64,000 nucleotides of DNA, from assembly GCA_018715495.1 (NCBI GenBank), contig DVLO01000022.1, positions 13,172 to 77,171 of the forward strand. Reading direction: 5' to 3'. Origin of the DNA: Candidatus Limihabitans stercoravium. Its GTDB lineage: Bacteria > Bacillota > Clostridia > Christensenellales > CAG-314. The translations under genes were made by a program, and so were the position numbers. Below the pieces are notes generated by a model. It saw nothing but the letters and a program-made list of their open reading frames with translations. It ran no database searches and was not told the origin of the DNA. Below are positions 7,334-53,607 of this stretch, piece after piece. Position 1 is the stretch's first letter. Each line of letters starts with the position of its first letter.

Positions 7334-7672
7334 ATGGATATCATCAAGAGCATTGAGCAAGAAAGTCTCAGACAAGTTACTTCCTTCAACGTAGGCGACA
7401 CAGTTCGTGTTATGTTCAAGGTTATCGAAGGTAACAAGGAAAGAATTCAGGCATACGAAGGTATTGTAATCGCTCGTAAGCACGGCGGCTTGAGAGAAAC
7501 CTTTACTGTAAGAAGAATTTCTTCCGGTATCGGCGTAGAAAGAACTTTCCCTGTACACAGTCCTAAGATCGACAACATTATCGTTGTAAGAAAGGGTGCT
7601 GTTAAACGTGCTAAGTTGTACTACTTGCGTGAACGTACAGGTAAGGCTGCTAAGATTCGTGAAAACATCTAA
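7334..7672 (+). CDS. rplS: 50S ribosomal protein L19
   Basis: [10 protein letters not shown]... and FNVGDTVRV...[28 protein letters not shown] lies 8 nt upstream of ATG 7334. The tracked 7259 GTG extension lacks an RBS. Confidence 0.95.
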
Positions 7673-7687
7673 TTGAAGTAAAGAATT

Positions 7688-7714
7688 CGGGCAATTTGTT
7701 TGCCCGTTTTTTTT
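7688..7714 (+). terminator. Rho-independent terminator after rplS
   Basis: CGGGCAA (7688-7694) pairs with TTGCCCG (7700-7706). A T8 run follows. Confidence 0.8.
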
Positions 7715-7746
7715 ATTCACAAATTTTACAATTTTTGTAAAACCTC

Positions 7747-7775
7747 TTGTATTATTTTGCGCTATACTTTATACT
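7747..7775 (+). promoter_or_regulatory. Putative promoter for comM-dprA-topA
   Basis: TTGTAT (7747-7752), 17-nt spacer, TATACT (7770-7775). Confidence 0.35.
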
Positions 7776-7805
7776 TTATTGAGATTACTTTAAGCAGGTG
7801 GGAGT

Positions 7806-9320
7806 ATGCTAGCTAAAATAAACAGTTACGGATTGCAGGGATTAGAGGGTTTTCCCGTAGAGGCGGAAGTGGACATGCATTCAGGCATGCCTACCTTCGA
7901 CATTGTCGGACTTGCCGACACAGCGGTAAAGGAATCCAAGGAAAGAGTGCGTTCGGCATTGAAGAACTGCGGGTACAACTATCCCGTTGCGTCGGTCGTG
8001 ATAAACCTTGCGCCTGCCGATGTCAAGAAAGAGGGCAGTTACTACGATCTTCCCATTGCAATAGGAATGCTTGTTGCCAGTAAACAGATTCAGATTTTGC
8101 ACAAGGATTGCGTTGTGATGGGCGAATTGTCTCTTAAAGGTGAGTTGCGCAAGATAAAGGGAGTTTTACCCATGCTCATTTCCGCCCGTCAGGCAGGGTA
8201 CAAGAGTGCTTTGATTCCGTCGGGTAATGCCAAGGAGGCACAATACATTGACGGCCTTGACGTGTACTGCGCCGATGATCTGACGCAGGCGGTGGAGTTC
8301 CTGTGCGGACAGCAACATCTTGATCCCGTACCTATTTCCAAGTGGATGGCTTGCGGCAGTGAAAGCAGTCATTACGACTTCAAATACATAAAAGGTCAGT
8401 TTTCGGCAAAAAGAGCCATGGAAATTGCCGTTGCAGGAGGGCATAATATCCTGATGATAGGTCCACCCGGAGCAGGTAAAACCATGCTTGCAAAGGCTGT
8501 TCCTACAATCATGCCCGACATGAGTTTCGATGAAGCGTTGGAAGTTGCCAAGATTCACAGTGTGGCAGGTATATTGGAAGACGGATTTGTGTCGCAACGC
8601 CCCTTCCGCAGTCCTCATCACTCTGCAACGATGGTGTCGTTGACAGGTGGCGGAAACAAGGCTAAACCGGGGGAGATCAGTCTTGCTCACAATGGTGTAC
8701 TGTTTCTTGACGAACTGCCCGAATACGGCAGACGGACATTGGAAACACTTCGCCAGCCGTTGGAAGACGGTGTCATTACAATAGCAAGAAACGCAACAAG
8801 CGTTACTTACCCTGCGCACTTCATGTTGATTGCCAGCATGAATCCCTGTCCGTGTGGTAACTACGGCAGCAGTGTAGAGTGTACATGTTCGGCGTCGCAG
8901 ATACACAAGTATCTGACCAAATTGTCAGGACCGTTGATGGATCGTATCGACATTCATGTTGAAGTGGACAACGTTACTTTTACGCAGTTGACAGAAGAAA
9001 GTTGCGGAGAAAGTTCGGCAACAGTCAAAAAACGTGTAGACGCTGCACGTCAACTTCAGCGTGACAGATTCGGTACTAAGATACATTGCAATGCACAGAT
9101 GACTTCTCAAGATATGGAAAAGTACTGCAAGATTGACAGTCGTTCCTCTGCGCTGTTGCAGGAAAGTTTCGAAAAGCTGCAATTGTCCGCCCGTGCGTAC
9201 AACCGTATATTAAAGGTGGCACGCACAATTGCTGACCTTGATGGCAAGGCGCAGATTGAGGTTCAGCACATTGCCGAAGCATTGCAGTACCGCACATTAG
9301 ACAGAAAATACAGGGTTTAA
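7806..9320 (+). CDS. comM: Mg-chelatase-like AAA+ protein ComM/YifB
   Basis: Lon-protease-like N-domain, Walker A GPPGAGKTMLA, Walker B LFLDELPE, and the C-terminal YifB domain. Confidence 0.9.
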   Translation: MLAKINSYGLQGLEGFPVEAEVDMHSGMPTFDIVGLADTAVKESKERVRSALKNCGYNYPVASVVINLAPADVKKEGSYYDLPIAIGMLVASKQIQILHKDCVVMGELSLKGELRKIKGVLPMLISARQAGYKSALIPSGNAKEAQYIDGLDVYCADDLTQAVEFLCGQQHLDPVPISKWMACGSESSHYDFKYIKGQFSAKRAMEIAVAGGHNILMIGPPGAGKTMLAKAVPTIMPDMSFDEALEVAKIHSVAGILEDGFVSQRPFRSPHHSATMVSLTGGGNKAKPGEISLAHNGVLFLDELPEYGRRTLETLRQPLEDGVITIARNATSVTYPAHFMLIASMNPCPCGNYGSSVECTCSASQIHKYLTKLSGPLMDRIDIHVEVDNVTFTQLTEESCGESSATVKKRVDAARQLQRDRFGTKIHCNAQMTSQDMEKYCKIDSRSSALLQESFEKLQLSARAYNRILKVARTIADLDGKAQIEVQHIAEALQYRTLDRKYRV

Positions 9321-9322
9321 CA

Positions 9323-10399
9323 ATGTACAATTTGAAAGAAAAACTTACAGTTGCAATGTATGTTGCAGGATTGTCTGCTTCACAGATAGTGGGGTTGTGG
9401 GAAAGATTCGACACTCCCGACAAATTGTTGAATGGCATTGACAAGGCTTCAGACATTCTTGACTGTAAACAGCTTGCAACTGTCAAAAAGCATTTAAAAG
9501 ACACATTTGTTGCTAAGTATTTCAACAAACTTGCACAAGATAACATACTATGTGTGACATACTACTCTGAAAATTACCCCGAAACATTGAAAAACATCAG
9601 TGACCCACCAATCGTGCTGTTTGCAAGGGGAAATGTAGGGTTACTCAAAAGCAAGTGTTTCGCAGTGGTAGGAACACGAAAGTTGTCTAACTACGGCAAA
9701 CGTGTCACGATGAATTTCACTTCCGAACTTGCAAGGTATTTTACCATTGTCAGCGGTCTTGCTTACGGTGCGGACAGTGTTGCTCACACAATTACTCTTG
9801 ACAACAACGGCAAGACAATCGCAGTGCTTGGTAGTGGATTGAACAACATTTACCCATCTACAAACAGGGGGCTTGCGGAAAGAATTGCCATGAGCGGTTC
9901 GTTGATTATTTCGGAATTTCTGCCTGATGCTCCGCCGTTGGCATTTCACTTTCCACGGCGCAATCGTATTGTATCGGCATTGTCAGTGGGATTACTTGTT
10001 ACCGAAGCACCGGAAAAGAGCGGTACATTGGGTACTGTCAATCTTGCGCTGGATCAGGGCAGAGACGTTTACGTTGTGCCCGGTGAAATTTACGCTTCCG
10101 GGTTTAAAGGAAGCAACAATCTGATAAAGAGTTTACAGGGGTGTATGGTAACTTCCCCATCGGATATACTAAGTCATTACAATTTCACGCCACGACAAAA
10201 AGTTACTGTTCAGCTCAATATTGAGGAGCAAGCCATTGTGGATTTGTTGAGCCAAGACAAGATGAATTTTGACGATTTGCTTGTTTCGACAGGGTTTTCT
10301 GTCAGTACACTCAATTTTTTGTTGGCAAATTTGGAATTACGGAGTATAATTGCAAAGTTACCCGGTAATTTTTACTGTTTAGACGGAGGAAACAGATGA
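9323..10399 (+). CDS. dprA: DNA processing protein DprA
   Basis: Rossmann-like DprA core (VVGTRKLSNYGK...SGLAYGADSVAH...VVPG). Confidence 0.9.
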   Translation: MYNLKEKLTVAMYVAGLSASQIVGLWERFDTPDKLLNGIDKASDILDCKQLATVKKHLKDTFVAKYFNKLAQDNILCVTYYSENYPETLKNISDPPIVLFARGNVGLLKSKCFAVVGTRKLSNYGKRVTMNFTSELARYFTIVSGLAYGADSVAHTITLDNNGKTIAVLGSGLNNIYPSTNRGLAERIAMSGSLIISEFLPDAPPLAFHFPRRNRIVSALSVGLLVTEAPEKSGTLGTVNLALDQGRDVYVVPGEIYASGFKGSNNLIKSLQGCMVTSPSDILSHYNFTPRQKVTVQLNIEEQAIVDLLSQDKMNFDDLLVSTGFSVSTLNFLLANLELRSIIAKLPGNFYCLDGGNR

Positions 10400-12609
10400 A
10401 ACTTGTCATTGTTGAATCGCCTGCAAAGGCTAAAACAATTGCCAAATATCTTGGAAAAGGTTACGAAGTGGAAGCATCCAAGGGTCACATCATGGATTTG
10501 CCCGAAAAGACAATGGGTGTTGATGTGGCAAATAACTACAAACCTGAGTACAAGATCAAGACCAAAGAACAGAAAGAAACTGTAAAGAGATTGCAATCCA
10601 AGGTAGAAAATGCCGAACAAGTATTTCTTGCAACCGACCCGGACCGTGAAGGAGAAGCAATTTCGTGGCATTTACAAACAGCCTTGAAACTTGATCCCAA
10701 TGCGAAAAATCGCATCATGTTTAATGAAATTTCCAACAGGGCTGTAAATGAAGCAATCAAGAATCCATCCAACATTAACATGGATTTGGTCAATGCACAA
10801 CAGGCAAGACGTGTTCTTGACCGTCTTGTGGGTTACACATTGTCGCCGGTGTTGTGTAAGAAAATCCGAAACAAGTTGTCGGCAGGACGTGTTCAATCTG
10901 CGGCATTGAAAATAATTGTTGACCGTGAAAAGGAAATAAAGGCATTTGTTCCCGAAGAGTACTGGACAGTTACCGCTAATCTTGAAAAGCCGTCCAACAA
11001 GCCAACATTCAAGGCAACTCTTTCGGAATGTAACGGCAAGAAATTCAAGATTACATCTAAAGAGCAGTGTGATACCGTCCTTAGTGACATCGACGGAAAG
11101 CCTTACAAGGTATCCAATGTAAAAAAGAGCGTGACATACGGACGTCCTCAGCCGCCCTTTACTACAAGTACAATGCAACAGGATGCCGTCAACAAGCTGA
11201 AGATGTCAAGCAGCCAGGTAATGCAGACTGCACAGCAGTTGTATGAAGGCGTTGACATTCCGGGGCAAGGACATCTTGCTTTGGTAACTTACATCCGTAC
11301 TGACTCAGTGCGTATTTCCGATGATGCTGTGAAATCCGCAAGAGAGTACATCAAGGCGCATTACGGTGAAAAATATATTCCATCAACGCCTAACGTGTAC
11401 TCATCGAAAAAACAGGCACAGGATGCTCACGAAGCAATACGTCCTATCAATCTTGATATCACCCCCGATTCGTTGAAGGACAAACTTCAACGCAGTCAAT
11501 ATCAGTTGTACAAGTTGATTTACAACAGATTTTTGGCAAGTCAGGCAAGTCGTGCAGTGTATGACAGCGTATCGGTAGAAGTTGGTTGCGACAAGTACAC
11601 ATTTACAGCTTCGGGTAAAACTGTCGTATTTGACGGTTATCTTGCTATTTACTCAACTGAAGAAAAGTCCAAGAAAGGCAAGTCCAACGACGAAGAAACG
11701 AACACAGTTTTGCCTCCGCTTGAAGAGGGAGACTTGTTGAAACTTCTGGAACTCACACACGAACAAAAGTTTACCAAAGCTCCTGCCCGTTACACTGAAG
11801 CAAGCCTCATCAAGGCAATGGAAGAACTGGGCATCGGTCGTCCAAGTACATTTGCCACAATCATGTCAACACTGTACAAGCGTGAATACATGGCTAAGGA
11901 TAACAAGAGCCTTGCTCCCACTGAATTGGGTATTACCGTTACAGATTACCTGGATCAGCATTTCCATGACATTGTAGACGTTGACTTTACGGCAGGCATG
12001 GAAGACAAACTGGACTCAATAGAAGAAGGAAAAGCGGTCTGGTATGAAATTGTCGATCAGTTCTACAAGCCAATGTGCGATGAGGTCAAGAAAGCATCCA
12101 AGTCGGAACGTGTTGTAGTGCAGGATGAACCATCTGACGAAGTGTGTGAAAAATGCGGATCGCCGATGGTGTACAAGACGGGTCCTTACGGTAAGTACCT
12201 TGCATGTTCCAATTACCCCAATTGCTCCAACAGACGCAGTCTGAAACAAAAGGTTGTGCCCAAGCAAACGGACATTCTGTGCGAAAAGTGCGGATCTCCC
12301 ATGCTTGAAAGGGAAGGCAAATACGGCAAGTATCTTGCATGTTCCAATTACCCCAAGTGTAAAAACATCAAGAGTATTACCGAATCCGTGTGCAAGTGTC
12401 CGCAGTGTGGCAAGGACGTTGTCAAGAAGGTGTCACGCACAGGAAAGGTGTTTTACGGTTGCAGCGGCTACCCCGAATGTAATTTCGTTACATGGGATAT
12501 GCCCACGGGGGAATTGTGTCCCAAATGCAACCAGCCGTTGGTTTATCGCAATTCCGACAAGGAAAAGGGCGTAATTTGTTCCAATAAAAAATGTGATTTT
12601 ACTAAGTGA
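10396..12609 (+). CDS. topA: DNA topoisomerase I
   Basis: TOPRIM domain (LVIVESPAKAKTI, DPDREGEAISWH), active-site region YIRTDS, and four C-terminal C4 zinc ribbons. Confidence 0.97.
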   Translation: MKLVIVESPAKAKTIAKYLGKGYEVEASKGHIMDLPEKTMGVDVANNYKPEYKIKTKEQKETVKRLQSKVENAEQVFLATDPDREGEAISWHLQTALKLDPNAKNRIMFNEISNRAVNEAIKNPSNINMDLVNAQQARRVLDRLVGYTLSPVLCKKIRNKLSAGRVQSAALKIIVDREKEIKAFVPEEYWTVTANLEKPSNKPTFKATLSECNGKKFKITSKEQCDTVLSDIDGKPYKVSNVKKSVTYGRPQPPFTTSTMQQDAVNKLKMSSSQVMQTAQQLYEGVDIPGQGHLALVTYIRTDSVRISDDAVKSAREYIKAHYGEKYIPSTPNVYSSKKQAQDAHEAIRPINLDITPDSLKDKLQRSQYQLYKLIYNRFLASQASRAVYDSVSVEVGCDKYTFTASGKTVVFDGYLAIYSTEEKSKKGKSNDEETNTVLPPLEEGDLLKLLELTHEQKFTKAPARYTEASLIKAMEELGIGRPSTFATIMSTLYKREYMAKDNKSLAPTELGITVTDYLDQHFHDIVDVDFTAGMEDKLDSIEEGKAVWYEIVDQFYKPMCDEVKKASKSERVVVQDEPSDEVCEKCGSPMVYKTGPYGKYLACSNYPNCSNRRSLKQKVVPKQTDILCEKCGSPMLEREGKYGKYLACSNYPKCKNIKSITESVCKCPQCGKDVVKKVSRTGKVFYGCSGYPECNFVTWDMPTGELCPKCNQPLVYRNSDKEKGVICSNKKCDFTK

Positions 12610-12615
12610 TAATAT

Positions 12616-13917
12616 ATGAAGGTTAAAGTTGTGGGTGGCGGTCTTGCCGGATGTGAGGCTTGTTACCAATTGTTGAAAAGAGGTGTAGACGTAACTCTTG
12701 TTGAGATGAAAAAGATCAAGAAGTCGCCTGCACACAATGTGGACGGATTGTGTGAACTTGTTTGTTCCAATTCGTTGAAGTCAATGGACATAAACACTGC
12801 AAGCGGACTGCTTAAGGCGGAACTTGACATGCTGGACAGCATGGTGTTGCGTGTTGCAAGACAATGCGCTGTTCCTGCCGGCAATGCTCTTGCGGTAGAC
12901 AGAGATTTGTTTTCCGAAAAAGTTACGGAATGTCTAAAAAGTTACAGCAACCTTACATTTGTTGACGGTGTTGAAGACAAGATTTTCGACGACGATTTCG
13001 ATGCGGTAATTGTTGCAACAGGTCCTTTGACGGACGAAGCACTTGTTCCTGCAATGAAGGAACTGTTCGGCAGTAACTTTCTGTACTTTTTCGACGCCGT
13101 TGCTCCCATTGTAACGGCAGACAGCCTTGATCGCAGCCGTTGCTTTACAGCAAGCAGGTACGGTAAGGGTGACAGTGACTATATCAACTGTCCAATGGAA
13201 AAGGATGAATTCATTGAATTCTATCGTGAATTGGTTTCAGCCGAAACGGTACCTGTAAAGGATTTCGAAAACAACGTATTCGAAGGCTGTATGCCAATTG
13301 AAGTCATGGCAGGTCGTGGACAGGATACAATTCGCTTTGGTCCTCTAAAACCTGTCGGATTAACTGATCCCAACACGGGAAAACGTCCTTACGCAGTTTT
13401 GCAGTTGCGCAGCGAAAACGCACAATGCACTCTGTACAATCTTGTGGGATTTCAGACTCACCTGCGCTTCGGTGAACAGAAACGTGTGTTCAGCATGATT
13501 CCCGCATTGAAGGACGCTGAATTTGTCAGATACGGTGTAATGCACCGTAATACATATATAAATGCACCCGAATTTTTGGACGAAACATTCCGTCTTAAGA
13601 ACAGCAAACAAAATATTTACTTTGCAGGACAGATGACAGGTGTAGAAGGTTACGTCGAATCGCTTGCCAGCGGACTGGTTGCGGGTGTACAATGTTTCAA
13701 TAGACTGAGCGGACTGGAACAGTTGGACTTTACCGACTGCACGATAATCGGCGCATTGACAAAGCATGTTTCCGTTGCGTATGGAAAGTACTCGCCGATG
13801 AACAGCAATTTCGGAATTTTGAGAACGCTGGAAGAAAACATCCGTGACAAGTCGTTGAAAAAACAGAAATTGAGTGAGCGTTCGTTGGAAACAATGAAAG
13901 CCGTATTGAAGTTGTAA
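12616..13917 (+). CDS. trmFO: Methylenetetrahydrofolate--tRNA-(uracil54-C5)-methyltransferase TrmFO
   Basis: FAD-binding [11 protein letters not shown]. Conserved topA-trmFO-hslVU order. Confidence 0.95.
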
Positions 13918-28890: not shown

Positions 28891-29937
28891 ATGAGTAAAG
28901 TTGTAAAAGTAGGCGGCGTTGAAATTGGCGGCGGCAATAAGATTGCCATTCAGTCAATGACAAACGTTGCTGTTAAAAACATTGACGCAACGGCGGAACA
29001 GTTCAAGAGACTTCAACTTGCCGGCTGCGATATAGTAAGAGTTGCTGTTCCCGATATGGACAGTGCAAAGGCATTGGTGACGGTAAAGCCTTTTACAACA
29101 ATGCCTGTTGTTGCGGACATTCATTATGACTACAGCCTTGCAATTGCTTCAATGGAACACGGGGCTGACAAGATTCGTATAAATCCCGGCAACATGTCTG
29201 TTGAACATCTTAAGTCGGTTGTGGATTGCGCACGTATGCACAATGTTCCCATTCGAATTGGCGTAAACGGCGGCTCGCCCCACAAAGAGTTTTTGCAAAA
29301 ATACGGTGACAAACAGGCTGCGTTGGTGGAAAGTTTGTTGCATTATACTTCGGTCATTGAAAAAATGGGTTTTAGCGACATTGTTCTATCTGTAAAAAGT
29401 AGTGATGTAACAGAAACAATTGCCGTCAACCGTATTGTTGCTAAAAGGTGTGATTACCCTTTGCACCTGGGAGTTACAGAGGCGGGGCCCTCATATCAGG
29501 GCATCATAAAAAATTCTGTCGGTATCGGCTCATTGCTTGCAGACGGTATCGGAGATACAATCAGAATTTCTTTGACGGATGACCCCGTGGAAGAAGTGCG
29601 TGCGGCAAAAACATTGCTCAATGCGTTAAATCTTGGTGGCGGAGTAACATTTGTGTCCTGTCCTAAGTGCGGTAGATGTCGTATTGATCTTGAAAAATAC
29701 GCAAAGGAAGTATACGATTACGTCAAGGACATTGATTGCAGGCTGAAGATTGCTGTGATGGGCTGCGAAGTGAATGGCATTGGAGAATGCTCTGACGCTG
29801 ATTTGGGTATGGCAGGAGGCAATGGAAAAGTTGCTTTCTTTAAGAAAGGTAAGGTTTTCGCTACCGTAGACGAATGTAACGCTTTGCCATTGTTTTTCGA
29901 CGAAATTGACAAACTTACCAACGAAAAAAGGAATTGA
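28891..29937 (+). CDS. ispG: 4-hydroxy-3-methylbut-2-enyl diphosphate synthase
   Basis: IAIQSMTN, RVAVPD, and the C-terminal [4Fe-4S] Cys residues SCPKCGRC...GCEVNG. Confidence 0.95.
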   Translation: MSKVVKVGGVEIGGGNKIAIQSMTNVAVKNIDATAEQFKRLQLAGCDIVRVAVPDMDSAKALVTVKPFTTMPVVADIHYDYSLAIASMEHGADKIRINPGNMSVEHLKSVVDCARMHNVPIRIGVNGGSPHKEFLQKYGDKQAALVESLLHYTSVIEKMGFSDIVLSVKSSDVTETIAVNRIVAKRCDYPLHLGVTEAGPSYQGIIKNSVGIGSLLADGIGDTIRISLTDDPVEEVRAAKTLLNALNLGGGVTFVSCPKCGRCRIDLEKYAKEVYDYVKDIDCRLKIAVMGCEVNGIGECSDADLGMAGGNGKVAFFKKGKVFATVDECNALPLFFDEIDKLTNEKRN

Positions 29938-29939
29938 AA

Positions 29940-31589
29940 ATGATAGTTGATGTGTTGAAGCAAAAGTTTCCTGATATTGAAGGACTGCGTGTCAGGGATA
30001 TAGTAGTTGACAAGACAAGCAAGCGTATAACTTGCGTTGTCACTACGCCTGTGTTGTCCAAATTGGACTTTGCTTTACGCAACGATATAATCAATGCGGC
30101 AAAAGACTGTCTGCCCAAGGGTTACGTTTCCTACGTTTCCATGAAAAACGATTTGTTTACATCTGTAACATATCGCAACTTTTTTCTGGAAGTTTTAAAG
30201 AAAAGATTTGTTGCAATTTCAAATATCAAAAAAGACAACGTCATTGTCAAGGAACAGCCCGGTAGACACTTCGAAATATCCCTGACGGTAAACCAGGTGC
30301 AAAAAAGCCTGATTGATGAATTGGATTTTATAAACAGATATACTGCCTATAACGACGGTTACACAAGTTACTCCGTCGATATAAACATCACTGTGGTAGA
30401 GCAGGATTTATCCATCGAAATTGCCAATCAGAAGATGTATGAACAACTGGCAATCAGTAAGCATCTCAGCCGTCCGCAAAGATATGTAGCTGTCAGCGAT
30501 TTAAAGGTGCTTGTTGGCAAAAAAATCGGCGGCAAGCCTTGTTACATTTCCGACGTGCGTGAAGCCCGTGACAATTGTGTGTTGTGTGGCGTGGTTTCGG
30601 AAAAGAAGTCAATGAAAGCCAAGAACAATCCCGGTATATACATTACCAAGTTTGTTTTGACAGATATTTCCGAAGCATCAATGCCTGTTGTTGTTTTTAC
30701 AAAATTGCAAACGGAAAATGTTGATGTAATCAAGCAGGCAACCGGAAAAGGTGATGCAGAAGCTCAGACTGTTTCCAAGAAAAATCAGCTCAGCAACGAA
30801 AGAAAAATGAAGATGCTTCTTGGTTTATATGACGGCACGGAAGTGGTAGTATTCGGCAAGGTCGCTAAAAGCAGTTTCAACGGCAATTGGGAGTTGACAG
30901 CACGTGACATTTCGATGTGTCGTATTGTCGGTCAGGACAACTCTTCTACATTGGTGCGTGCTTTGCCTGACAAGTATCTGCTTGTAAAACCTAAAGTTTA
31001 CCAACAATATCGTCAGCAATCGCTCATTGATACTGAAGATGTTCCCGTTCCTTTTGAGTTGTCGGGCAGTATTGTATTTCTTGACATAAACGCTACGGGA
31101 CTAAATCCGTTAAAAGACAAGGTGTTCAAGTTGTGTGCAGTCAAAATGACTAACGGTAAAATTGTTGAAAGTTTGTCCTGTACGTTAAATCCTGAATGCG
31201 ACATTGAACAACGTAAATTGTCGGAATCAAATGTTTCAGTTGAAAAGCTGGTGGTCAGCCCTACCTTGTCGGAAGTGGTAGGTGACTTGTACAAGTTTTG
31301 TCACGGCTGTTCAATTGCATCCTTTAATACAGATAAATTCATGGAAATGATAAAATACTACGCAACGCCTGTAGGTTATATCTTCGACAACAAGTTGATC
31401 AGACTTCCTGATCTGTTGACAAGGCTTTACGACATTGCAGGTGAAAACAAGCGTCCCAACATGACAGTTCTTGCGGAGATTGCCAAGTCGCTGCATGTGC
31501 CGCTTGATTCTCAGACTGATTGCTTTGCAACTGCGATGGTATCGGCAAGATGCGTAAGCGAAATCAGCAAGAAGCGTAGCGATCTGTAA
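29940..31589 (+). CDS. PolC-derived protein: PolC-like N-terminal domain, OB fold and a degenerate DEDD exonuclease-like domain, with no PHP or polymerase domains
   Basis: Sits in the syntenic slot of polC (ispG ... rimP-nusA). The OB-like segment [19 protein letters not shown] resembles the PolC OB domain. The C-terminal domain aligns by eye with the B. subtilis PolC exonuclease ([10 protein letters not shown] vs [23 protein letters not shown] vs [14 protein letters not shown]). ATG 29940 lies 2 nt after the ispG stop. Confidence 0.6.
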   Translation: [549 protein letters not shown]

Positions 31590-31620: not shown

Positions 31621-31649
31621 TTGCCAAAGTCAGTGTACTGTGGTATAAT
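31621..31649 (+). promoter_or_regulatory. Putative sigma-A promoter of the rimP-nusA-infB operon
   Basis: TTGCCA (31621-31626), 17-nt spacer, extended -10 TGgTATAAT (31641-31649). Confidence 0.6.
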
Positions 31650-31677
31650 CTAAGTACTGTTAAATCTGTAGTTCGGT

Positions 31678-31712
31678 TTGAGAGTGGAGCTTTCTCCACT
31701 CTCAACTTGTTG
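31678..31712 (+). promoter_or_regulatory. Leader hairpin of the nusA operon (possible attenuator)
   Basis: TTGAGAGTGGAG (31678-31689) pairs perfectly with CTCCACTCTCAA (31694-31705), 12 bp, 4-nt loop. CTTGTTGT follows. Confidence 0.4.
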
Positions 31713-31726
31713 TAAGGAGAATTTAT

Positions 31727-32182
31727 ATGAGTAAAGTTGCAGACAGCGTCAGACAACTTGTAGAACCAATTGCAGGTCAATTCGGTCTTGAAGTTGTCGA
31801 AGTTGTTTACGAAAAGAAGTACGATGGAATGAATCTTACAATTTTCATTGACAAGGACGGTGGCGTCTCCATCGACGATTGTGAAAAACTTCACCGTGCA
31901 ATTGATGAACCCTTGGACGAATTGGACCCTATCAGTGAGTCATATACTCTCAACGTTTCGTCTCTTGGAATAGATCGTCCTTTGAAAACAGACAGAGATT
32001 TCAAACGCAATCTGAACAAAAAGATATCCGTCAAGCTCTACAAAGCTATTGACGGCAAAAAGACATTCAGCGGTGAGCTGATTTCCTACGATGAACAACA
32101 GTTTGTGATCGACACAGGCAAACAACAGCTTACCTTTAACAGACAACAATGCGCTCACATTGAGCCGGTAATCGAATTTTAA
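31727..32182 (+). CDS. rimP: Ribosome maturation factor RimP
   Basis: VEPIAGQFGLEVVEVVYEKK...LTIFIDK is typical RimP. Sits upstream of nusA. Confidence 0.9.
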   Translation: MSKVADSVRQLVEPIAGQFGLEVVEVVYEKKYDGMNLTIFIDKDGGVSIDDCEKLHRAIDEPLDELDPISESYTLNVSSLGIDRPLKTDRDFKRNLNKKISVKLYKAIDGKKTFSGELISYDEQQFVIDTGKQQLTFNRQQCAHIEPVIEF

Positions 32183-32196
32183 GTGGAGGAACACAC

Positions 32197-33297
32197 ATGA
32201 ACAGTAAAGACTTTTTCGCTGCTTTGGAAGATCTTGAAAGAGAAAAAGGTATAAGCAAAGAGACATTTTTACAATCGCTTGAAACAGCATTGTCCATTGC
32301 ATGCAAGAAGAACTTTGGCGAACAATCCAACGTAACAGTCAAGCTCAATCCGGAAAAGGCATCCATCAAGGTTTACATTTCCAAGCAGATCGTGGAAAAT
32401 GTAGAAGTTCCCGAAAAGGAAATTTCTCTGGCAGACGCTCAGTTGGAAAAGAAGTCCTACAAGTTAGGCGACATGTACACCAAGGAAATTTTCCCTCGTG
32501 ACTTCGGACGCATCGCCGCTCAGACTGCACGTCAGGTAATTATGAACAGTCTGCACCAGGCTGAAAAAGACATCACTTACAATCAGTTCCTCGACAAGGA
32601 AAGCGAACTGCTCATCGGCGTCGTTTCCCGTGTAAAGGACGACGGCACAATCTACGTCGAAATCGGCAAAAACCAGATGGAAGGGGTGTTGACCGTTCAG
32701 GAACAGATCCCCGGCGAAAAGTACAGCGCAGGCGATCGTATCAAGGTTCTTGTAAAGCGTGTTCGTGAAAGCAACAGCGGTGCACAGGTAATCTTGTCCC
32801 GTGCAAGTCATCTGTTCATCAAGCGCCTGTTCGAAATTGAAGTTCCAGAAATCCGTTCGGAAATCGTACAAATCAAGGCAATTGTCCGTGAGGCAGGTTT
32901 CCGTACCAAGATGGCAGTGTATTCTACAGATCCCGACATTGATCCTGTCGGTGCATGCGTAGGTAACAAGGGCGTACGTGTAAACTCCATTGTTAACGAA
33001 ATCGGCGGCGAAAAGATCGACATCATTCCTTGGAGCAGCGATATCCTGGACTATATCGCAAGGGCATTGTCTCCTGCGAAGGTTCTGATTGTTCAGGCTA
33101 ACGAAGAAACCAAGGAAGCCAAGGTCATTGTTCCCGATGAAAAGCTGTCGCTTGCTATCGGTAAGGAAGGACAAAACGCACGTCTTGCTGCACGTCTTAC
33201 CGGCTGGAAGATCGATGTCAAGTCCTACACAGCTGCTATGCAAAGCGGTATGTTCGACCATGTAGAAGAAACAGAAGGTGCAACTGATGAACAATAA
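32197..33297 (+). CDS. nusA: Transcription termination/antitermination factor NusA
   Basis: S1 domain and two KH domains ([29 protein letters not shown]; [23 protein letters not shown]). Confidence 0.96.
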
Positions 33298-50542: not shown

Positions 50543-51166
50543 CGTGGGTAACCACACAACTTAATAAAAAAATACTGGTGGTGCAGTATTCTAGTCAGAA
50601 ACAGGTGCGAAGAAGACGGGGTTAAAATATCGTCGAAGGGCATATCGATGAAGTTTCTTGTGCTGGCTTCCGTTGCCCAAACGGGGGCTTGTGCTGGAAG
50701 TTAAGATTGCTGGGTAAGACGTAATGGCATACGTGTGATCCCCAACAGTCGTGGAGACTCTACAGGGTGGTTGTACGCTACGGAGCGCAACTACTCTCTG
50801 AGATTAAACCTGCTATGCGGCATCAAAGCTGTGTACAGAGTAGCTTGTTTTGAGTGAAGTTTTGGGAGTAATGAACGGCGTTTGCTTTGTTGGCCGACAA
50901 CAACCGTCCGAATGCTTTATGAAATGAATTTTGCAAAAGAAACTAAGCGTAGTTGTTTCTGCAAAGGAAATCTTCTAGACTGCAATTCAGGTAAGTCGGG
51001 GATTATAGTACGGTCTGAGTGGCGATTCAGTTAAGCGTGTGGCGACACCGCTTGTGCGAAATGAAAAGGAAACTGCTCTTTCGGCGACGAGGAGTTTTTG
51101 CACGGGAAATCCTACTGAACCTATGCCGTAAGGTTTATCCGACTTATCACCACCTTATTTTTTTTA
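50543..51166 (+). ncRNA. ole: OLE (ornate, large, extremophilic) RNA candidate; boundaries approximate
   Basis: The ispA-oapA interval has no tracked + strand ORF of 60 aa or more. It has its own promoter and many hairpins, including GNRA loops (GTGG-GTAA-CCAC 50544-50555; GTG-GCGA-CAC 51039-51048). Long-range complementarities: GGTGGTG 50577-50583 with CACCACC 51148-51154; TAAGTCGG 50992-50999 with CCGACTTA 51139-51146; CTACTCT 50791-50797 with AGAGTAG 50837-50843. The synteny folD-xseA-xseB-ispA-[RNA]-TM protein-dxs...argR-recN is the published OLE context. Confidence 0.75.
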
Positions 51167-51184
51167 CATTTTACAGGAGTTTAT

Positions 51185-51823
51185 ATGAATAAGCAGGGCA
51201 GCGACCCCACATCGGACAATGGTAAAAATCAAGAAATAAACAGTACTGACTTGACATCCAAGAGCAAGGCGCAGGACAAGACAAATCCCAAAAAGAAGAA
51301 GAAAAAGAATCTTTGGCCGTTGAAGGCTTGCTTGATTACTCTTGTTTTGTCTTTTGCGGTCAATACTGCGTCGGAACTTGCGCTTACGGGCGCACACATT
51401 GCAATTGCAATTGTAATTACGCTGGTAATTGTAATGATTGGCGTGTTTTTCGATATAATAGGTACTGCAAGTACTTCTTGTGACATTCAGCCTTTTCTTG
51501 CTATGGCGTCAAGAAAGGTGAAGGGAGCTAAAACTGCCGTCAAATTTGCCAAAAACAGCGACGTTGTATCTTCCGTCTGCAATGACATCATAGGTGACAT
51601 ATGTGGTGTCGTATCAGGCGTGTGCGGTGCGGCAATTGTAGGCAACGTTACAGGTAACGTTACAGGCAACTTTTCATTCTGGTTCAGCGTGTTGACTTAC
51701 GCAATTGTTTCTACGCTGACAATCACGGGAAAGGCTTTGGGTAAGAATTACGCCGTAAACAACGCTAACAAAATTGTATTTAACACTGCTAAGTTTATCA
51801 GTTTGTTTAGTAAAGAGGGTTAA
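51185..51823 (+). CDS. oapA: OLE-associated protein A candidate (small polytopic membrane protein)
   Basis: 212 aa. Basic, disordered N-terminus with a KKKKKK run, then predicted TM helices with repeated DIIG motifs (FFDIIGTAS; CNDIIGDICG). Sits immediately 3' of the ncRNA and 5' of dxs. AGGAG RBS lies 5 nt upstream. Confidence 0.7.
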   Translation: MNKQGSDPTSDNGKNQEINSTDLTSKSKAQDKTNPKKKKKKNLWPLKACLITLVLSFAVNTASELALTGAHIAIAIVITLVIVMIGVFFDIIGTASTSCDIQPFLAMASRKVKGAKTAVKFAKNSDVVSSVCNDIIGDICGVVSGVCGAAIVGNVTGNVTGNFSFWFSVLTYAIVSTLTITGKALGKNYAVNNANKIVFNTAKFISLFSKEG

Positions 51824-53607
51824 TGATTAGAGACATCAACAGCCCCGACGATCTCAAAAAATTGTCTGTAAAGCAACTTCCTAAACTGTGTGAGGAAATC
51901 AGACAACTGCTTGTTGACACGGTGCTTTCAACGGGCGGACATCTTGCTTCCAATCTTGGAGTGGTGGAACTTACTGTTGCATTGCATTACGTTTTCGATT
52001 CGTCGGATAAAATCGTGTGGGATGTAGGGCATCAGAGCTACGTTCACAAAATACTTACGGGAAGGTTGTCCCGTTTCGCAACGCTCAGACAGAAAGACGG
52101 TCTGGGCGGTTTTCCCCGTATGGACGAAAGCATGACTGACTCTTTCAACACAGGTCATGCCAGCACGGCTATTTCTGCTGCGCTGGGAATTGCAAAAGCA
52201 CGTGATTTAAAGGGAGAAGACTACAATGTAGTGGCAGTAGTCGGAGATGGTGCATTGACCGGTGGGCTTGCTTACGAAGGGCTTAACAATGTCGGAAACA
52301 CTAAGATGTTGATTGTGGTAAACGACAACAACATGTCAATCGCTGAAAACGTAGGTTCGGCCACTCTCAACATGAGTAAAATCCGTGTAGGATCTTACGA
52401 CAGAAACAAGGAGCGTTTAAAAAAGTTTTTGTCTAAAATCCCCCTTCTGGGAAAACCTACATACAAATTCCTTCATTGGTGCAAGCGTCGTGTCAAGATG
52501 TCTTACGGAGAGAACAGTTACTTCGATAAGTTTGATATAAAGTACATCGGTGCAATTGACGGCAATGATGTAGGAGATTTGGTTTACTTCCTTACTAAAA
52601 TCAAAAACAATGTTACAAAACCAACTGTTTTACACGTGTTGACCAAGAAGGGCAAGGGTTACAAACCTGCAGAAGACGATCCCGAACAGTTCCATTCTGT
52701 TGGGAAAACAGGAGCGGTGCTTTCAAGCGAAACTGTAGGCGAAACTCTTTGTCAACTTGCGCAACACAACAACATATGTGCAATTACTGCAGCAATGCAG
52801 GATGCTGTGGGGCTGGGAGAAATGGCTAAGCAATTTCCCGACAGAGTATTCGATGTCGGTATTGCCGAAGAACACGCAGTTACATTTGCAGCGGGACTTG
52901 CCACCGGCGGTGTTAAACCGTATGTGGCAATTTACTCTACATTCTTGCAGCGCGCGTTTGACCAGATACAGCATGATGTATCTTTGCAGAATTTACCTGT
53001 CACATTCCTGCTTGACCGCAGTGGACTTGTCGGCAGCGACGGTGCGACTCATCAGGGAATTTACGACTTGAGTTATCTGACGTGTATTCCCAACATGACA
53101 GTCTGGACTCCTGCAAGTTACAGTCAGCTAAAATCCATGATTGAGAAATCTGTTGAATTTCCAACGCCGTTGGCAATCAGATACGCCAAAACTCTGTCTT
53201 CGGACAAACTGCCTTTTGACGGTAATTGGAATGTTCTTCTTGATGGTAAGCATATCCATTTACTTGCAGTAGGCAACAATATGCTTGAAGTGGCAATAAG
53301 AGTCAAGCAAGACTACCTTCTAAAAGCTCAGGTAGTCAATGTTACTACAGTCAAGCCGCTAGACAGCGTCTATCTTGAAACAATCAATGACGGTGATGTC
53401 GTTGTAGCCTTGGAAGAAAATGTCCGCCAGGGCGGTTTCGGAAGTCTTGTAAAGGATTATTTTGCCGATAGAAATGTAAAGGTGCTAGGTTTTGCTGTTG
53501 GTGATTCGGTTGCTCAAGGCACAGTTGATGAGCAGATGAAGATGTGCGGACTTGATGCAGAAAGCGTTGGAAGATATCTGTTGCAGACATTAAAAAATGA
53601 AATTTAA
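51823..53607 (+). CDS. dxs: 1-deoxy-D-xylulose-5-phosphate synthase
   Basis: GGHLASNLGVVELTVALH, GHASTAISAALG, thiamine-PP motif GDGALTGGLAYEGLNN, and a transketolase-like C-terminus. The start overlaps the oapA stop (TAATG). Confidence 0.96.
   Translation: MIRDINSPDDLKKLSVKQLPKLCEEIRQLLVDTVLSTGGHLASNLGVVELTVALHYVFDSSDKIVWDVGHQSYVHKILTGRLSRFATLRQKDGLGGFPRMDESMTDSFNTGHASTAISAALGIAKARDLKGEDYNVVAVVGDGALTGGLAYEGLNNVGNTKMLIVVNDNNMSIAENVGSATLNMSKIRVGSYDRNKERLKKFLSKIPLLGKPTYKFLHWCKRRVKMSYGENSYFDKFDIKYIGAIDGNDVGDLVYFLTKIKNNVTKPTVLHVLTKKGKGYKPAEDDPEQFHSVGKTGAVLSSETVGETLCQLAQHNNICAITAAMQDAVGLGEMAKQFPDRVFDVGIAEEHAVTFAAGLATGGVKPYVAIYSTFLQRAFDQIQHDVSLQNLPVTFLLDRSGLVGSDGATHQGIYDLSYLTCIPNMTVWTPASYSQLKSMIEKSVEFPTPLAIRYAKTLSSDKLPFDGNWNVLLDGKHIHLLAVGNNMLEVAIRVKQDYLLKAQVVNVTTVKPLDSVYLETINDGDVVVALEENVRQGGFGSLVKDYFADRNVKVLGFAVGDSVAQGTVDEQMKMCGLDAESVGRYLLQTLKNEI

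What the first reader, a model, noticed from the sequence alone, without database searches (positions are those of the whole stretch)
29940..31589. PolC-derived pseudo-exonuclease protein occupying the polC slot, with no PHP or polymerase domains
Between ispG and rimP-nusA, Bacillota typically encode proS and the ~1,430-aa replicative polymerase PolC. Here there is only a 549-aa ORF, translationally coupled to ispG. By eye it has three parts. (i) A PolC-like N-terminal region. (ii) An OB-fold-like segment (about nt 30486-30939; CYISDVRE...[19 protein letters not shown]...VVVFGKV). (iii) A C-terminal domain (about nt 31065-31589) that aligns with the B. subtilis PolC 3'-5' exonuclease: [33 protein letters not shown] vs [33 protein letters not shown]. 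The DEDDh catalytic residues are substituted: Exo I DxE becomes DIN (Glu to Asn, nt 31089-31091), Exo II AHNASFD becomes SFNTDKF, and Exo III HxxxxD becomes LDSQTD. The PHP segment that normally separates the OB and exonuclease domains is absent, and only 137 nt remain before rimP. So this is neither a simple truncation nor an assembly break. It looks like a domesticated, catalytically dead PolC fragment kept in its ancestral position, possibly a clamp-, SSB- or DNA-binding accessory factor, with the true polC elsewhere.
Basis: partly seen in the sequence, partly recalled or inferred. Interest (0 to 1): 0.7.

Follow-up and report, generated by a model that had tools for sequence, protein, structure and literature searches.

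The report
Catalytically dead PolC relic protein
Where related bacteria encode their main DNA-copying enzyme PolC, this uncultured gut Clostridia lineage keeps only its front third, with a dead proofreading nuclease that selection still preserves, which hints that the lineage may replicate without PolC.

Summary
A 549-aa ORF (29940-31589, +) sits between ispG and rimP-nusA. It aligns collinearly with the N-terminal ~600 residues of PolC: a KH-like N-terminal domain, an OB fold and a DnaQ-type exonuclease fold. It has no recognisable PHP domain and no polymerase core. The DEDDh catalytic residues are replaced. It is not an assembly artefact or a decaying pseudogene. Forty-one GTDB species genomes carry an intact 543-560-aa orthologue next to ispG, nearly all followed by rimP. 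dN/dS is 0.05-0.22, including across the dead nuclease domain.

That family has at least 185 clusters at 50% identity and more than 1000 proteins, all from uncultured Clostridia. All five contexts sampled from catalytically intact members occupy the polC slot. In 119 of 144 representatives the DEDDh site is intact. The window's clade (Christensenellales, around Ca. Fimimonas) lost catalysis once. It then gained a 31-residue helical insertion in the OB fold.

My best reading is a non-catalytic DNA- or replisome-binding subunit descended from a stand-alone, PolC-derived proofreader. I could not test whether a full polC survives elsewhere in these genomes.

The parts
29940..31589 (+). Whole gene: 549-aa PolC-derived NTD-OB-pseudo-exonuclease protein (stop codon 31587-31589).
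   Evidence: ORF list. Six orthologues of 545-549 aa at 33-98% identity. 41 GTDB species loci with intact ORFs. AlphaFold2 model with pLDDT 94.8 and pTM 0.74.
29928..29942 (+). Ribosome-binding site AAGGA (29928-29932) and ATG start (29940-29942), placed 2 nt after the ispG stop TGA (29935-29937). This arrangement suggests translational coupling.
   Evidence: Sequence read. Orthologues overlap ispG by 4 nt.
29940..30467 (+). N-terminal domain, residues 1-176: two KH-like alpha/beta subdomains plus a long helix, equivalent to the PolC NTD (NI/NII).
   Evidence: Secondary-structure order alpha-beta-beta-alpha-beta, then alpha-beta-beta-alpha-alpha-beta, in the model. Collinear profile alignment to PolC residues 45-346 and 24-162. 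Only marginal Pfam NI/NII hits.
30483..30935 (+). OB-fold domain, residues 182-332, homologous to the PolC OB domain.
   Evidence: PF01336 in 45 of 56 family members. Profile hit to G. kaustophilus PolC 3f2b residues 13-99 (2.5e-6). Foldseek top hit is PolC 9qpc_A, spanning OB plus Exo.
30705..30827 (+). Clade-specific ~31-residue helical insertion inside the OB fold (about residues 256-296, helices 261-268 and 272-294). Its sequence is strongly conserved ([18 protein letters not shown]).
   Evidence: The marker-to-marker distance is 52 residues in the window clade and 21 in 87 of 119 active members (20-24 in all but four, which carry other insertions). The basal inactive members also have 21. 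Conservation; helices.
30936..31064 (+). Linker, residues 333-375, replacing the N-terminal PHP segment of PolC. It contains the family's most conserved motif, Y346-x2-V-x-P351-x7-Q359-Q-S-L-I363 (nt 30975-31028).
   Evidence: Y346, P351 and Q359 are invariant or at least 90% conserved across the family. The motif [YFW]xx[V]xP-x6-9-Q-x-[NDS]-[LF]-F occurs in 245 of 258 family-length proteins. hhalign places the linker over PolC PHP strands. pLDDT is below 50 with the shallow alignment and 81-95 with the deep one.
31065..31586 (+). Pseudo-exonuclease domain, residues 376-549: DnaQ/DEDDh fold with the catalytic residues replaced (D382-I-N384; Exo II Asp to F467; Exo III His lost).
   Evidence: NCBIfam and PDB hits. 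BLASTP 28% identity to a clostridial PolC exonuclease, E 5e-14. Foldseek TM 0.77-0.80 to DnaQ domains. Catalytic pentad tabulated. dN/dS of this domain 0.07-0.21.
28891..29937 (+). ispG (upstream neighbour that defines the polC slot).
   Evidence: ORF list. PF04551 GcpE at the same position in orthologous loci. tblastn synteny.
31621..31705 (+). Promoter-like site (TTGCCA-17-TGgTATAAT, 31621-31649) and a 12-bp hairpin (31678-31705) in the spacer before rimP. If functional, they imply that rimP-nusA-infB has its own promoter and leader, and that the relic gene is transcribed with the upstream uppS-cdsA-dxr-rseP-ispG genes.
   Evidence: Consensus scan, 11 of 12 matches with a TG extension. Sequence read. 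Function was not tested.
31727..33297 (+). rimP (31727-32182) and nusA (32197-33297), the downstream neighbours that define the slot.
   Evidence: ORF list. Pfam RimP_N/RimP_C and NusA domains at the same position in orthologous loci. tblastn.

Best explanation
The gene is what remains of polC after in-situ loss of the PHP and polymerase modules.

**Shown.**
- A large radiation of uncultured Clostridia carries, at the polC position, a ~505-590-aa protein. It consists of the PolC N-terminal KH-like domain, the PolC OB fold, a short conserved linker and the PolC-type DEDDh exonuclease.
- In most members the nuclease site is intact.
- The window's clade lost all five catalytic positions once, then acquired a conserved helical insertion in the OB fold.
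- That clade has stayed under strong purifying selection in every domain.

**Inferred.**
- The intact family acts as a stand-alone 3'-5' proofreader or DNA-end-binding subunit working in trans with the remaining C-family polymerase. That polymerase would be a clostridial DnaE1, which the literature describes as fully equipped to replicate alone. This would make the family an epsilon-like subunit derived from PolC.
- In the window's clade only the non-catalytic roles remain. These would be binding of single-stranded DNA or the primer end through the modified OB fold, and protein contacts through the NTD, the linker motif and the family-specific D449-L-Y-K-F and Y480-x-F-x-N surfaces.
- The protein would then be a structural replisome subunit. 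Proofreading would fall to another activity, plausibly the PHP domain of DnaE1.
For: **PolC origin**
- The family profile aligns collinearly with PolC over NTD, OB and Exo. hhalign against the 720-aa N-terminal part of a clostridial PolC gives probability 100%, E 4.7e-50, 493 columns.
- HMM against E. faecium PolC 9qpc matches residues 45-346 and 440-605.
- The best NCBIfam hit for three of four active members tested is the PolC equivalog, second for the fourth.
- The best Foldseek hit is PolC 9qpc_A.

**Position**
- The gene lies between ispG or rseP and rimP-nusA in the window, in close orthologues and in distant active members.

**Family size and activity**
- 185 clusters at E<=1e-30 and more than 1000 proteins.
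- 119 of 144 representatives have an intact DEDDh site.

**Single loss of catalysis, then insertion**
- NJ tree rooted on PolC: the inactive group is monophyletic in 37 of 40 bootstraps and the insertion clade in 35 of 40.

**Selection**
- 41 intact ORFs, with dN/dS 0.05-0.22 overall and 0.07-0.21 for the dead nuclease domain.
- Window against a 98%-identical relative: dN/dS 0.17, compared with 0.15 for ispG.

**Fold**
- pLDDT 94.8 and pTM 0.74 point to a compact, defined multi-domain protein.

**Literature**
- Clostridial DnaE1 has a conserved PHP metal site, a clamp-binding motif and an epsilon-binding surface.
- Some Clostridia have DnaE1 only.
- Fragments without a polymerase site were discarded from that survey (PMC3919608).
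Against: - No experiment or co-complex prediction links the protein to DnaE1, the clamp or the clamp loader.
- I could not establish whether these genomes lack a full-length PolC. No tool here queries a whole genome.
- The candidate clamp-binding motif keeps its terminal Phe in only 4 of 25 inactive members. The window has QQSLI.
- The deep-alignment model packs the linker against the domains rather than leaving it free.
- Homology of the NTD alone to the PolC NTD is modest (probability 77%).
- The DnaE1-only Firmicutes listed in the part of the 2026 survey table I could read do not include Christensenellales. That survey covers complete genomes only, and the stored file was cut.
Confidence: 0.55

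Rival explanations
1. The relic is a paralogue, and a normal full-length polC is encoded elsewhere in the genome. The relic would then act as a modulator, for example by competing with or assisting PolC or DnaE at the clamp, at the clamp loader or on ssDNA. It would not stand in for a lost PolC.
For: - PolC is essential in the studied Firmicutes (PMC13220808).
- Most Clostridia have PolC plus DnaE1 (PMC3919608 and PMC12926913).
- At least one clostridial PolC lies outside the canonical slot (L052), so relocation of polC does happen.
- Nothing here shows that PolC is absent.
Against: - All five active-member contexts and nearly all inactive-clade loci sampled have the short gene at the ancestral polC position. 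The simplest history is therefore reduction of the original gene, not duplication followed by relocation of the full copy.
- Named members of the window's clade have small genomes of about 1.4 Mb (PMC8035907), where a redundant paralogue kept for this long is less expected.
- No polC or dnaE lies within 6-10 kb of any of the ~50 loci, though this is weak evidence.
Confidence: 0.3
2. After losing its polymerase, the relic was co-opted for RNA metabolism. KH-like domains, an OB fold and an RNase T-like fold could bind or trim RNA 3' ends during ribosome or tRNA maturation. This would fit the neighbouring rimP-nusA-infB-rbfA-nrnA-truB genes.
For: - The NTD has KH-like topology (PMC3919608).
- The DEDDh superfamily includes RNase T and oligoribonuclease, both among the Foldseek hits.
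- The downstream operon is devoted to ribosome and RNA functions.
Against: - The position is inherited from polC, so it carries no functional information.
- If the promoter-like site and leader hairpin before rimP are functional, the gene is transcribed with the upstream lipid and isoprenoid genes, not with rimP-nusA.
- The closest sequence and structure relatives are DNA proofreaders: PolC exonuclease, DinG exonuclease and epsilon.
- In a sub-lineage the gene stays with ispG while rimP-nusA is replaced by rplI-rho-mnmA.
Confidence: 0.07
3. The ORF is a non-functional remnant, meaning a decaying pseudogene of polC, or an assembly or truncation artefact.
For: Catalytic residues are lost, two thirds of PolC are missing, and the window protein has no Pfam hit.
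Against: - The same architecture appears on more than 50 independent contigs from different samples and hosts.
- Every ORF is intact at 543-560 aa.
- dN/dS is 0.05-0.22 at dS up to 1-2.
- The structure prediction is confident and compact.
- The OB insertion was gained and then conserved.
Confidence: 0.01

Closest known systems
PolC (PolC-type DNA polymerase III alpha subunit of Bacillota; e.g. E. faecium PolC, PDB 9qpc; G. kaustophilus PolC, 3f2b)
   Same: Same order of N-terminal KH-like domain, OB fold and DEDDh-type exonuclease fold. Same chromosomal position upstream of rimP-nusA. Best sequence, profile and structure matches.
   Different: No recognisable PHP domain, polymerase core or (HhH)2. 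The protein is 549 aa, against 1474 aa for E. faecium PolC. A 45-residue linker replaces the PHP segment between OB and Exo. The catalytic DEDDh residues are gone in the window's clade.
[quoted passage not shown]
   Same: A separate polypeptide with a DnaQ fold that, in the active family members, could proofread in trans for a DnaE-type polymerase. From general knowledge, epsilon carries a clamp-binding motif next to its nuclease domain and also has a structural role in the polymerase-clamp complex.
   Different: Epsilon has no NTD or OB fold, and from general knowledge it binds the alpha PHP domain through a C-terminal peptide that is absent here. The family's nuclease domain is closer to PolC than to epsilon (7.5e-51 and 6.4e-48 to PolC chains, against 1.2e-23 to epsilon). 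The window protein is catalytically dead.
PolA2 / APEX polymerases of Actinobacteria (vestigial 3'-5' exonuclease carrying a QxxLF clamp-binding motif; PMC12926913)
   Same: A DnaQ-like domain that lost its catalytic residues but is retained. A QxxLF-type motif sits in a loop associated with the dead domain (for PolA2; here).
   Different: PolA2 keeps an active polymerase and belongs to family A. Here no polymerase is left. Clamp binding is only a sequence-pattern inference, and the motif is degenerate in the window's clade.
Exonuclease-less PolC variants of Clostridia and Negativicutes (PMC3919608)
   Same: They show that in PolC + DnaE1 lineages the PolC modules are evolutionarily separable.
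   Different: Those variants keep NTD-OB-PHP-Pol3-HhH and lack Exo. This family keeps NTD-OB-Exo and lacks a recognisable PHP domain, Pol3 and HhH, which is nearly the complementary set. Co-occurrence was not tested.

Membership tests
PolC-type DNA polymerase III alpha subunit | Polymerase core (palm, thumb, fingers; PF07733/PF17657) with the catalytic aspartates | tested here: not met
   The protein ends 174 residues after the start of the exonuclease fold, and 137 nt later rimP begins. No polymerase-domain hit in Pfam or NCBIfam. The PolC equivalog scores 47 bits against a cut-off of 873.
PolC-type DNA polymerase III alpha subunit | PHP domain split by the exonuclease insertion | tested here: not met
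   Only a 45-residue linker lies between OB and Exo, and nothing follows Exo. There are no PHP histidine motifs.
PolC-type DNA polymerase III alpha subunit | PolC-specific N-terminal domain followed by an OB fold N-terminal to the nuclease | tested here: met
   Collinear profile alignments. PF01336 in 45 of 56 members. NTD alone: probability 77%, E 2e-5. The model shows two KH-like subdomains.
DEDDh (DnaQ/RNase T, PF00929) 3'-5' exonucleases | DnaQ-like alpha/beta fold | tested here: met
   Foldseek TM 0.77-0.80 to DnaQ domains and epsilon, probability 1.00. HMM hits.
DEDDh (DnaQ/RNase T, PF00929) 3'-5' exonucleases | Catalytic residues: Exo I D-x-E, Exo II D, Exo III H-x4-D | tested here: not met
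   The window pentad reads D-N-F-T-T instead of D-E-D-H-D. In orthologues the first Asp is also replaced. The wider family does meet this feature in 119 of 144 representatives.
Stand-alone NTD-OB-Exo 'PolC relic' family (defined here; no curated model found) | Full-length collinear similarity (~505-590 aa), position in the polC slot, and the linker motif Y-x2-V-x-P...Q-x2-hydrophobic | tested here: met
   Profile search hits span residues 1-545. Synteny. The window motif is Y346..P351..Q359QSLI. No full-length NCBIfam or Pfam model exists.
Beta-clamp-binding proteins (QL[SD]LF-type motif) | An accessible pentapeptide Q-L-[SD]-L-F that binds the hydrophobic cleft of DnaN | tested here: inconclusive
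   The family consensus Q-x-[NDS]-[LF]-F occurs in 245 of 258 proteins. The window has Q-Q-S-L-I. A terminal Phe is present in 75 of 119 active members but only 4 of 25 inactive ones. The linker is confidently packed in the deep-alignment model. hhalign lays the linker over former PHP strands. No binding test is possible with these tools.
Pseudogene or decaying remnant | Frameshifts, stops or relaxed selection in relatives | tested here: not met
   41 of 41 loci carry intact ORFs. dN/dS is 0.05-0.22.

The most novel reading that the evidence does not exclude
A whole radiation of uncultured gut Clostridia (the Christensenellales group around Ca. Fimimonas and related lineages) has dispensed with the PolC polymerase and replicates with DnaE1 alone. 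The N-terminal third of PolC survives as a dedicated replisome subunit. In most lineages it is a trans-acting proofreader. In the window's clade it is a purely structural pseudo-enzyme whose modified OB fold and conserved surfaces hold DnaE1, the clamp or the clamp loader together. This would be a bacterial counterpart of the inactivated polymerase and exonuclease modules kept in eukaryotic replicases. Such bacteria would also be intrinsically insensitive to PolC-targeting antibiotics.
Probability: 0.3. Interest if true: 0.8.

Novelty: new variant of a known kind. Interest (0 to 1): 0.65.

Why it matters
PolC is regarded as the essential main replicase of Bacillota and is the target of the antibiotic ibezapolstat, now in late-stage clinical development (PMC12592400).

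- **An unrecorded replisome component.** A large, conserved family keeps only PolC's N-terminal domain, OB fold and exonuclease at the polC locus. The two comprehensive surveys of bacterial C-family polymerases do not mention it. One of them explicitly discarded fragments without a polymerase site (PMC3919608).
- **A natural experiment on clostridial replication.** If these bacteria lack PolC, they bear on the open question raised in that survey: whether clostridial DnaE1 is the real replicase.
- **A function for poorly understood domains.** The family would point to a role for the PolC NTD and OB fold that is independent of the polymerase.
- **A staged route to a pseudo-enzyme.** The window's clade adds a dated sequence: loss of the polymerase, then loss of nuclease catalysis, then gain of an OB insertion, with purifying selection seen in the present-day clade.
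- **A practical consequence.** PolC-less gut Clostridia would be spared by PolC inhibitors.

Tried and rejected
1. A Pfam scan of the window protein returned nothing. Domain identity needed family profiles and structure prediction.
2. The word-indexed protein search reached only 6 close orthologues, both with the window protein and with the broad alignment. The exhaustive HMM search and a search seeded with an active member revealed the wider family.
The narrower alignment A3 worked, but it sampled only the inactive clade.
4. P0007, a 720-aa 'NTD-OB-PHP-Exo-PHP' protein, looked like a possible intermediate form. It is a frameshifted normal PolC from a long-read assembly, with polymerase fragments directly downstream.
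5. I tried to learn whether a full polC or dnaE exists in the same genomes.
   - No polymerase lies within 6-10 kb of any locus.
   - The window has no ORF longer than 893 aa, and its large ORFs are topA, aspS, dxs, recN and others.
   - Extending the window through its terminal genes failed because there was no exact match on record.
   - The supplementary tables of the two polymerase surveys were cut when stored, or did not cover these uncultured lineages.
6. Three loci lacking rimP downstream (L021, L022, L030) might have hidden a polymerase. They carry rplI, rho and mnmA instead.
7. The first NJ tree contained undefined distances, and I repeated it with capped distances.
8. Literature searches for a truncated or stand-alone PolC exonuclease protein, and for Christensenellales with PolC, found no description of the family.
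Full report
**1. What is in the sequence**

The window carries the conserved Bacillota gene string frr-uppS-cdsA-dxr-rseP-ispG, then the ORF, then rimP-nusA-ylxR-(ylxQ-like)-infB-rbfA-DHH phosphoesterase-truB (Pfam assignments for the same genes in orthologous loci).

- The ORF runs from ATG 29940 to the stop at 31587-31589 and encodes 549 aa.
- ispG stops at 29935-29937, and AAGGA lies 7 nt before the ATG.
- In orthologues the start overlaps the ispG stop by 4 nt, so translational coupling is plausible.
- After the ORF come 137 nt holding a strong promoter-like site (TTGCCA-17-TGgTATAAT, 11 of 12 matches) and a 12-bp hairpin. rimP follows.
- The window has no ORF longer than 893 aa. Its large ORFs are topA, aspS, dxs, recN, infB and others.

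From my own knowledge of B. subtilis (rasP-proS-polC-rimP-nusA) and Clostridium (rseP-ispG-polC-rimP-nusA), this is the polC position. I did not verify the clostridial arrangement with a tool here.

**2. Domain identity**

On its own the protein is nearly invisible to domain libraries.
- It has no Pfam hit.
- It gives weak NCBIfam hits to DnaQ-type and PolC models over residues 378-544 (best 8e-16; PolC equivalog 7e-13 at 47 bits against a cut-off of 873).
- Its one PDB sequence hit is the T. maritima PolC exonuclease domain (1.2e-5).

Family profiles settle the matter.
- A 56-sequence profile matches full-length E. faecium PolC (9qpc) in two collinear stretches. Profile positions 10-297 match PolC 45-346 (NTD plus OB, i-E 4.4e-6). 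Positions 340-507 match PolC 440-605 (Exo, 1.4e-38).
- The same profile's OB part also hits G. kaustophilus PolC.
- A 147-sequence profile aligned by hhalign to the N-terminal 720 residues of a clostridial PolC gives probability 100%, E 4.7e-50, with 493 aligned columns in one collinear block.
- The NTD on its own is weaker (probability 77%, E 2e-5, 135 columns). Pfam NI/NII models are only marginally hit. [quoted passage not shown]

The AlphaFold2 model built on the deep alignment is confident (mean pLDDT 94.8, pTM 0.74). It shows:
- two KH-like alpha/beta subdomains (1-157) and a long helix;
- an OB barrel (182-332) with a helical hairpin inserted at 256-296;
- an extended linker (333-375);
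- a DnaQ fold (377-549).

Foldseek ranks PolC 9qpc_A first (E 1.7e-13, 408 columns over OB plus Exo). DnaQ-type domains follow at TM 0.77-0.80.

**3. The nuclease site is dead**

In an alignment of 144 full-length family representatives, the five catalytic positions read D-E-D-H-D in 119. In the window protein they read D-N-F-T-T.
- Exo I is D382-I-N384.
- The Exo II Asp aligns to F467.
- The Exo III His is absent in either possible register.
- In the 35%-identical orthologues even D382 is H, S, Y or N.

**4. Not an artefact and not a pseudogene**

- Six close orthologues (545-549 aa) lie on independent metagenome and MAG contigs of up to 219 kb.
- A scan of one genome per GTDB species found 41 loci, all with intact ORFs of 543-560 aa.
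- All 41 have ispG directly upstream, and nearly all have rimP-nusA downstream.
- One sub-lineage has rplI-rho-mnmA downstream instead, while the gene stays attached to ispG.

| Comparison | dN | dS | dN/dS |
|---|---|---|---|
| L015 vs L023 | 0.024 | 0.449 | 0.053 |
| L045 vs L051 | not reported | not reported | 0.067 |
| More distant pairs | not reported | not reported | 0.1-0.22 |
| NTD, by domain | not reported | not reported | 0.05-0.23 |
| OB, by domain | not reported | not reported | 0.02-0.18 |
| Pseudo-exonuclease, by domain | not reported | not reported | 0.07-0.21 |
| Window vs 98%-identical relative | not reported | not reported | 0.17 (ispG 0.15) |

Record titles and one taxonomic description place the clade among uncultured gut Clostridia.
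- Ca. Fimimonas is assigned to GTDB order Christensenellales, family CAG-314, with genomes of about 1.4 Mb.
- Other records are titled 'Christensenellaceae', 'Oscillospiraceae' or 'Clostridia' MAGs.
- The hosts include chicken, rabbit, mouse, human, sheep and deer.

**5. The wider family**

An exhaustive HMM search of 1.84 billion cluster representatives returned 185 clusters at E<=1e-30. Nearly all are 500-590 aa and match over the full length. A search seeded with one active member found more than 1000 proteins at E<=1e-10, and the best 120 are nearly all about 500-550 aa.

- These distant members have textbook motifs: FDFETTG, HNxxFD and HRAxxD.
- The few names attached to them are generic: 'exonuclease domain-containing protein', 'DNA polymerase III epsilon subunit family exonuclease', and once 'PolC-type DNA polymerase III'.
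- No Pfam or NCBIfam model covers the full length. For three of the four active members tested the best NCBIfam hit is the PolC equivalog through the nuclease domain, far below its cut-off, and for the fourth it ranks second.
- All five active-member contexts I looked at (L008, L009/L010, L054-L056, L057) place the gene between rseP or ispG and rimP-nusA.

So a whole radiation carries a stand-alone NTD-OB-Exo gene where polC would be. An NJ tree rooted on the corresponding parts of a PolC gives these results:
- All catalytically inactive members form one clade (37 of 40 bootstraps).
- The nearest active relatives are P0021 and P0022.
- The window's group is nested inside that clade (35 of 40 bootstraps).

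The nested group alone carries a conserved ~31-residue helical insertion in the OB fold. The marker distance is 52 residues there, against 21 in 87 of 119 active members and in the basal inactive members. Four active members carry other insertions of 43-74 residues.

The inferred order of events is:
1. polC is reduced to an NTD-OB-Exo protein.
2. The DEDDh residues are lost, once.
3. The OB insertion is gained.

**6. The linker**

The most conserved positions of the whole family lie in the 45-residue linker, not in the folds. Y346, P351 and Q359 are invariant or at least 90% conserved.

Across 258 family-length proteins, 245 contain [YFW]-x2-[V]-x-P-x6-9-Q-x-[NDS]-[LF]-F. Its last five residues match the bacterial beta-clamp-binding consensus QL[SD]LF, which I know from the general literature. 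The PolC I could inspect has no such motif at this place.

Three observations temper the clamp-binding reading:
- With the deep alignment, AlphaFold places the linker with pLDDT 81-95, packed against the domains. The shallow alignment left it disordered.
- hhalign lays the linker over the former PHP strands of PolC, so it may be a structural vestige.
- The terminal Phe is present in 75 of 119 active members but only 4 of 25 inactive ones. The window has QQSLI. These counts are not phylogenetically independent.

I treat clamp binding as a candidate, not a finding.

**7. Mechanism**

*Shown:*
- descent from PolC;
- in-situ position;
- absence of a recognisable PHP domain and of the polymerase;
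- loss of the catalytic residues;
- purifying selection on every domain;
- a compact predicted fold;
- the clade-specific OB insertion.

*Inferred:* the active family is a trans-acting 3'-5' exonuclease with its own ssDNA-binding module. It most plausibly serves the other C-family polymerase of Clostridia, DnaE1.

The survey literature supports this context (PMC3919608; PMC12926913).
- Clostridial DnaE1 has a conserved PHP metal site, a clamp-binding motif and an epsilon-binding surface.
- Some Clostridia have DnaE1 only.
- The authors ask whether DnaE1 is the real replicase in that class.

In the window's clade only non-catalytic functions can remain: DNA binding through the remodelled OB fold, and protein contacts. 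The family-specific D449-L-Y-K452-F453 and Y480-x-F-x-N484 motifs are conserved in both active and dead members and differ in the two PolC sequences aligned here.

A structural role for a proofreading subunit has a precedent in E. coli epsilon. That paper appears in the reference list of PMC12592400, but I did not read it here.

**8. What I could not resolve**

Whether a full-length polC survives elsewhere in these genomes is the key unknown. The tools allowed no whole-genome query, and all indirect attempts failed (see the list of rejected attempts).

- Parsimony favours loss. The short gene occupies the ancestral position in all five active-member contexts and nearly all inactive-clade loci sampled, and the genomes are small.
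- PolC is essential in every studied Firmicute.
- The DnaE1-only Firmicutes listed in the readable part of the 2026 survey are other lineages.

I put loss of the PolC polymerase at roughly 55-65% and a paralogue scenario at about 30%.

**9. Novelty and verdict**

The two comprehensive C-family surveys (2014 and 2026) do not describe this architecture. The 2014 survey removed fragments lacking a polymerase active site. Targeted literature searches found nothing.

The parts are known kinds: a PolC NTD, an OB fold, a DnaQ fold, and a pseudo-enzyme. The stand-alone combination at the polC locus appears to be a new variant, and so does its inactivated, OB-modified sub-clade.

Its interpretation is partly supported. 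The important correction is that the window protein is the dead branch of a large, mostly active family, and 'true polC elsewhere' remains an open question rather than a given.

Noticed in passing
window 50562-51169 (+): A full-length OLE (Ornate Large Extremophilic) RNA, Rfam RF01071, scoring 450 bits with E 5e-129. It lies just upstream of dxs (51823-53607) and recN (54143-55831). Worth recording that this large structured RNA occurs in a small-genome, uncultured gut Clostridia lineage.
   Followed up: no
window 31621-31705 (+): The spacer before rimP holds a near-consensus extended -10 promoter (TTGCCA-17-TGgTATAAT). It is followed by a perfect 12-bp hairpin (TTGAGAGTGGAG-CTTT-CTCCACTCTCAA) without a clear T-run. 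This could be a leader or attenuator element of the rimP-nusA-infB operon.
   Followed up: partly
L012, L019 (record titles); NCBI taxid 2840648: NCBI taxonomy files Candidatus Fimimonas under Myxococcaceae, and two MAGs of this Clostridia clade are titled 'Corallococcus sp.'. The original description assigns the genus to Christensenellales, family CAG-314. This looks like a taxonomy-database error that propagates into record names.
   Followed up: partly
L021, L022, L030 (about 7640-13600 in each locus): In one sub-lineage of the inactive clade the relic gene is still attached to ispG, but rplI, rho, mnmA and an HGSNAT-like acyltransferase follow it instead of rimP-nusA. The old polC-rimP junction was broken by a rearrangement, while the ispG-relic junction was kept.
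   Followed up: partly
L052 10001-13945: A clostridial PolC in a long-read assembly is split by frameshifts into a 720-aa N-terminal ORF and small polymerase fragments. It lies outside the canonical slot, after nrdD, DUF2142, spoIIID and an ASCH gene. This is probably sequencing error, but it shows that polC can sit elsewhere in some Clostridia.
   Followed up: partly
L047 and L050 (contigs CAZHUH010000023.1 and CAZHUH010000002.1 of one MAG): The same MAG holds two contigs with identical copies of the relic gene and its neighbours. This is most likely redundant assembly rather than a real duplication.
   Followed up: no
L009, L054, L057 (genes upstream of the relic): Lineages carrying the active form lack dxr and ispG between cdsA/rseP and the relic gene, whereas the window's clade has both. 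The MEP-pathway genes at this locus therefore differ between the sub-families.
   Followed up: no
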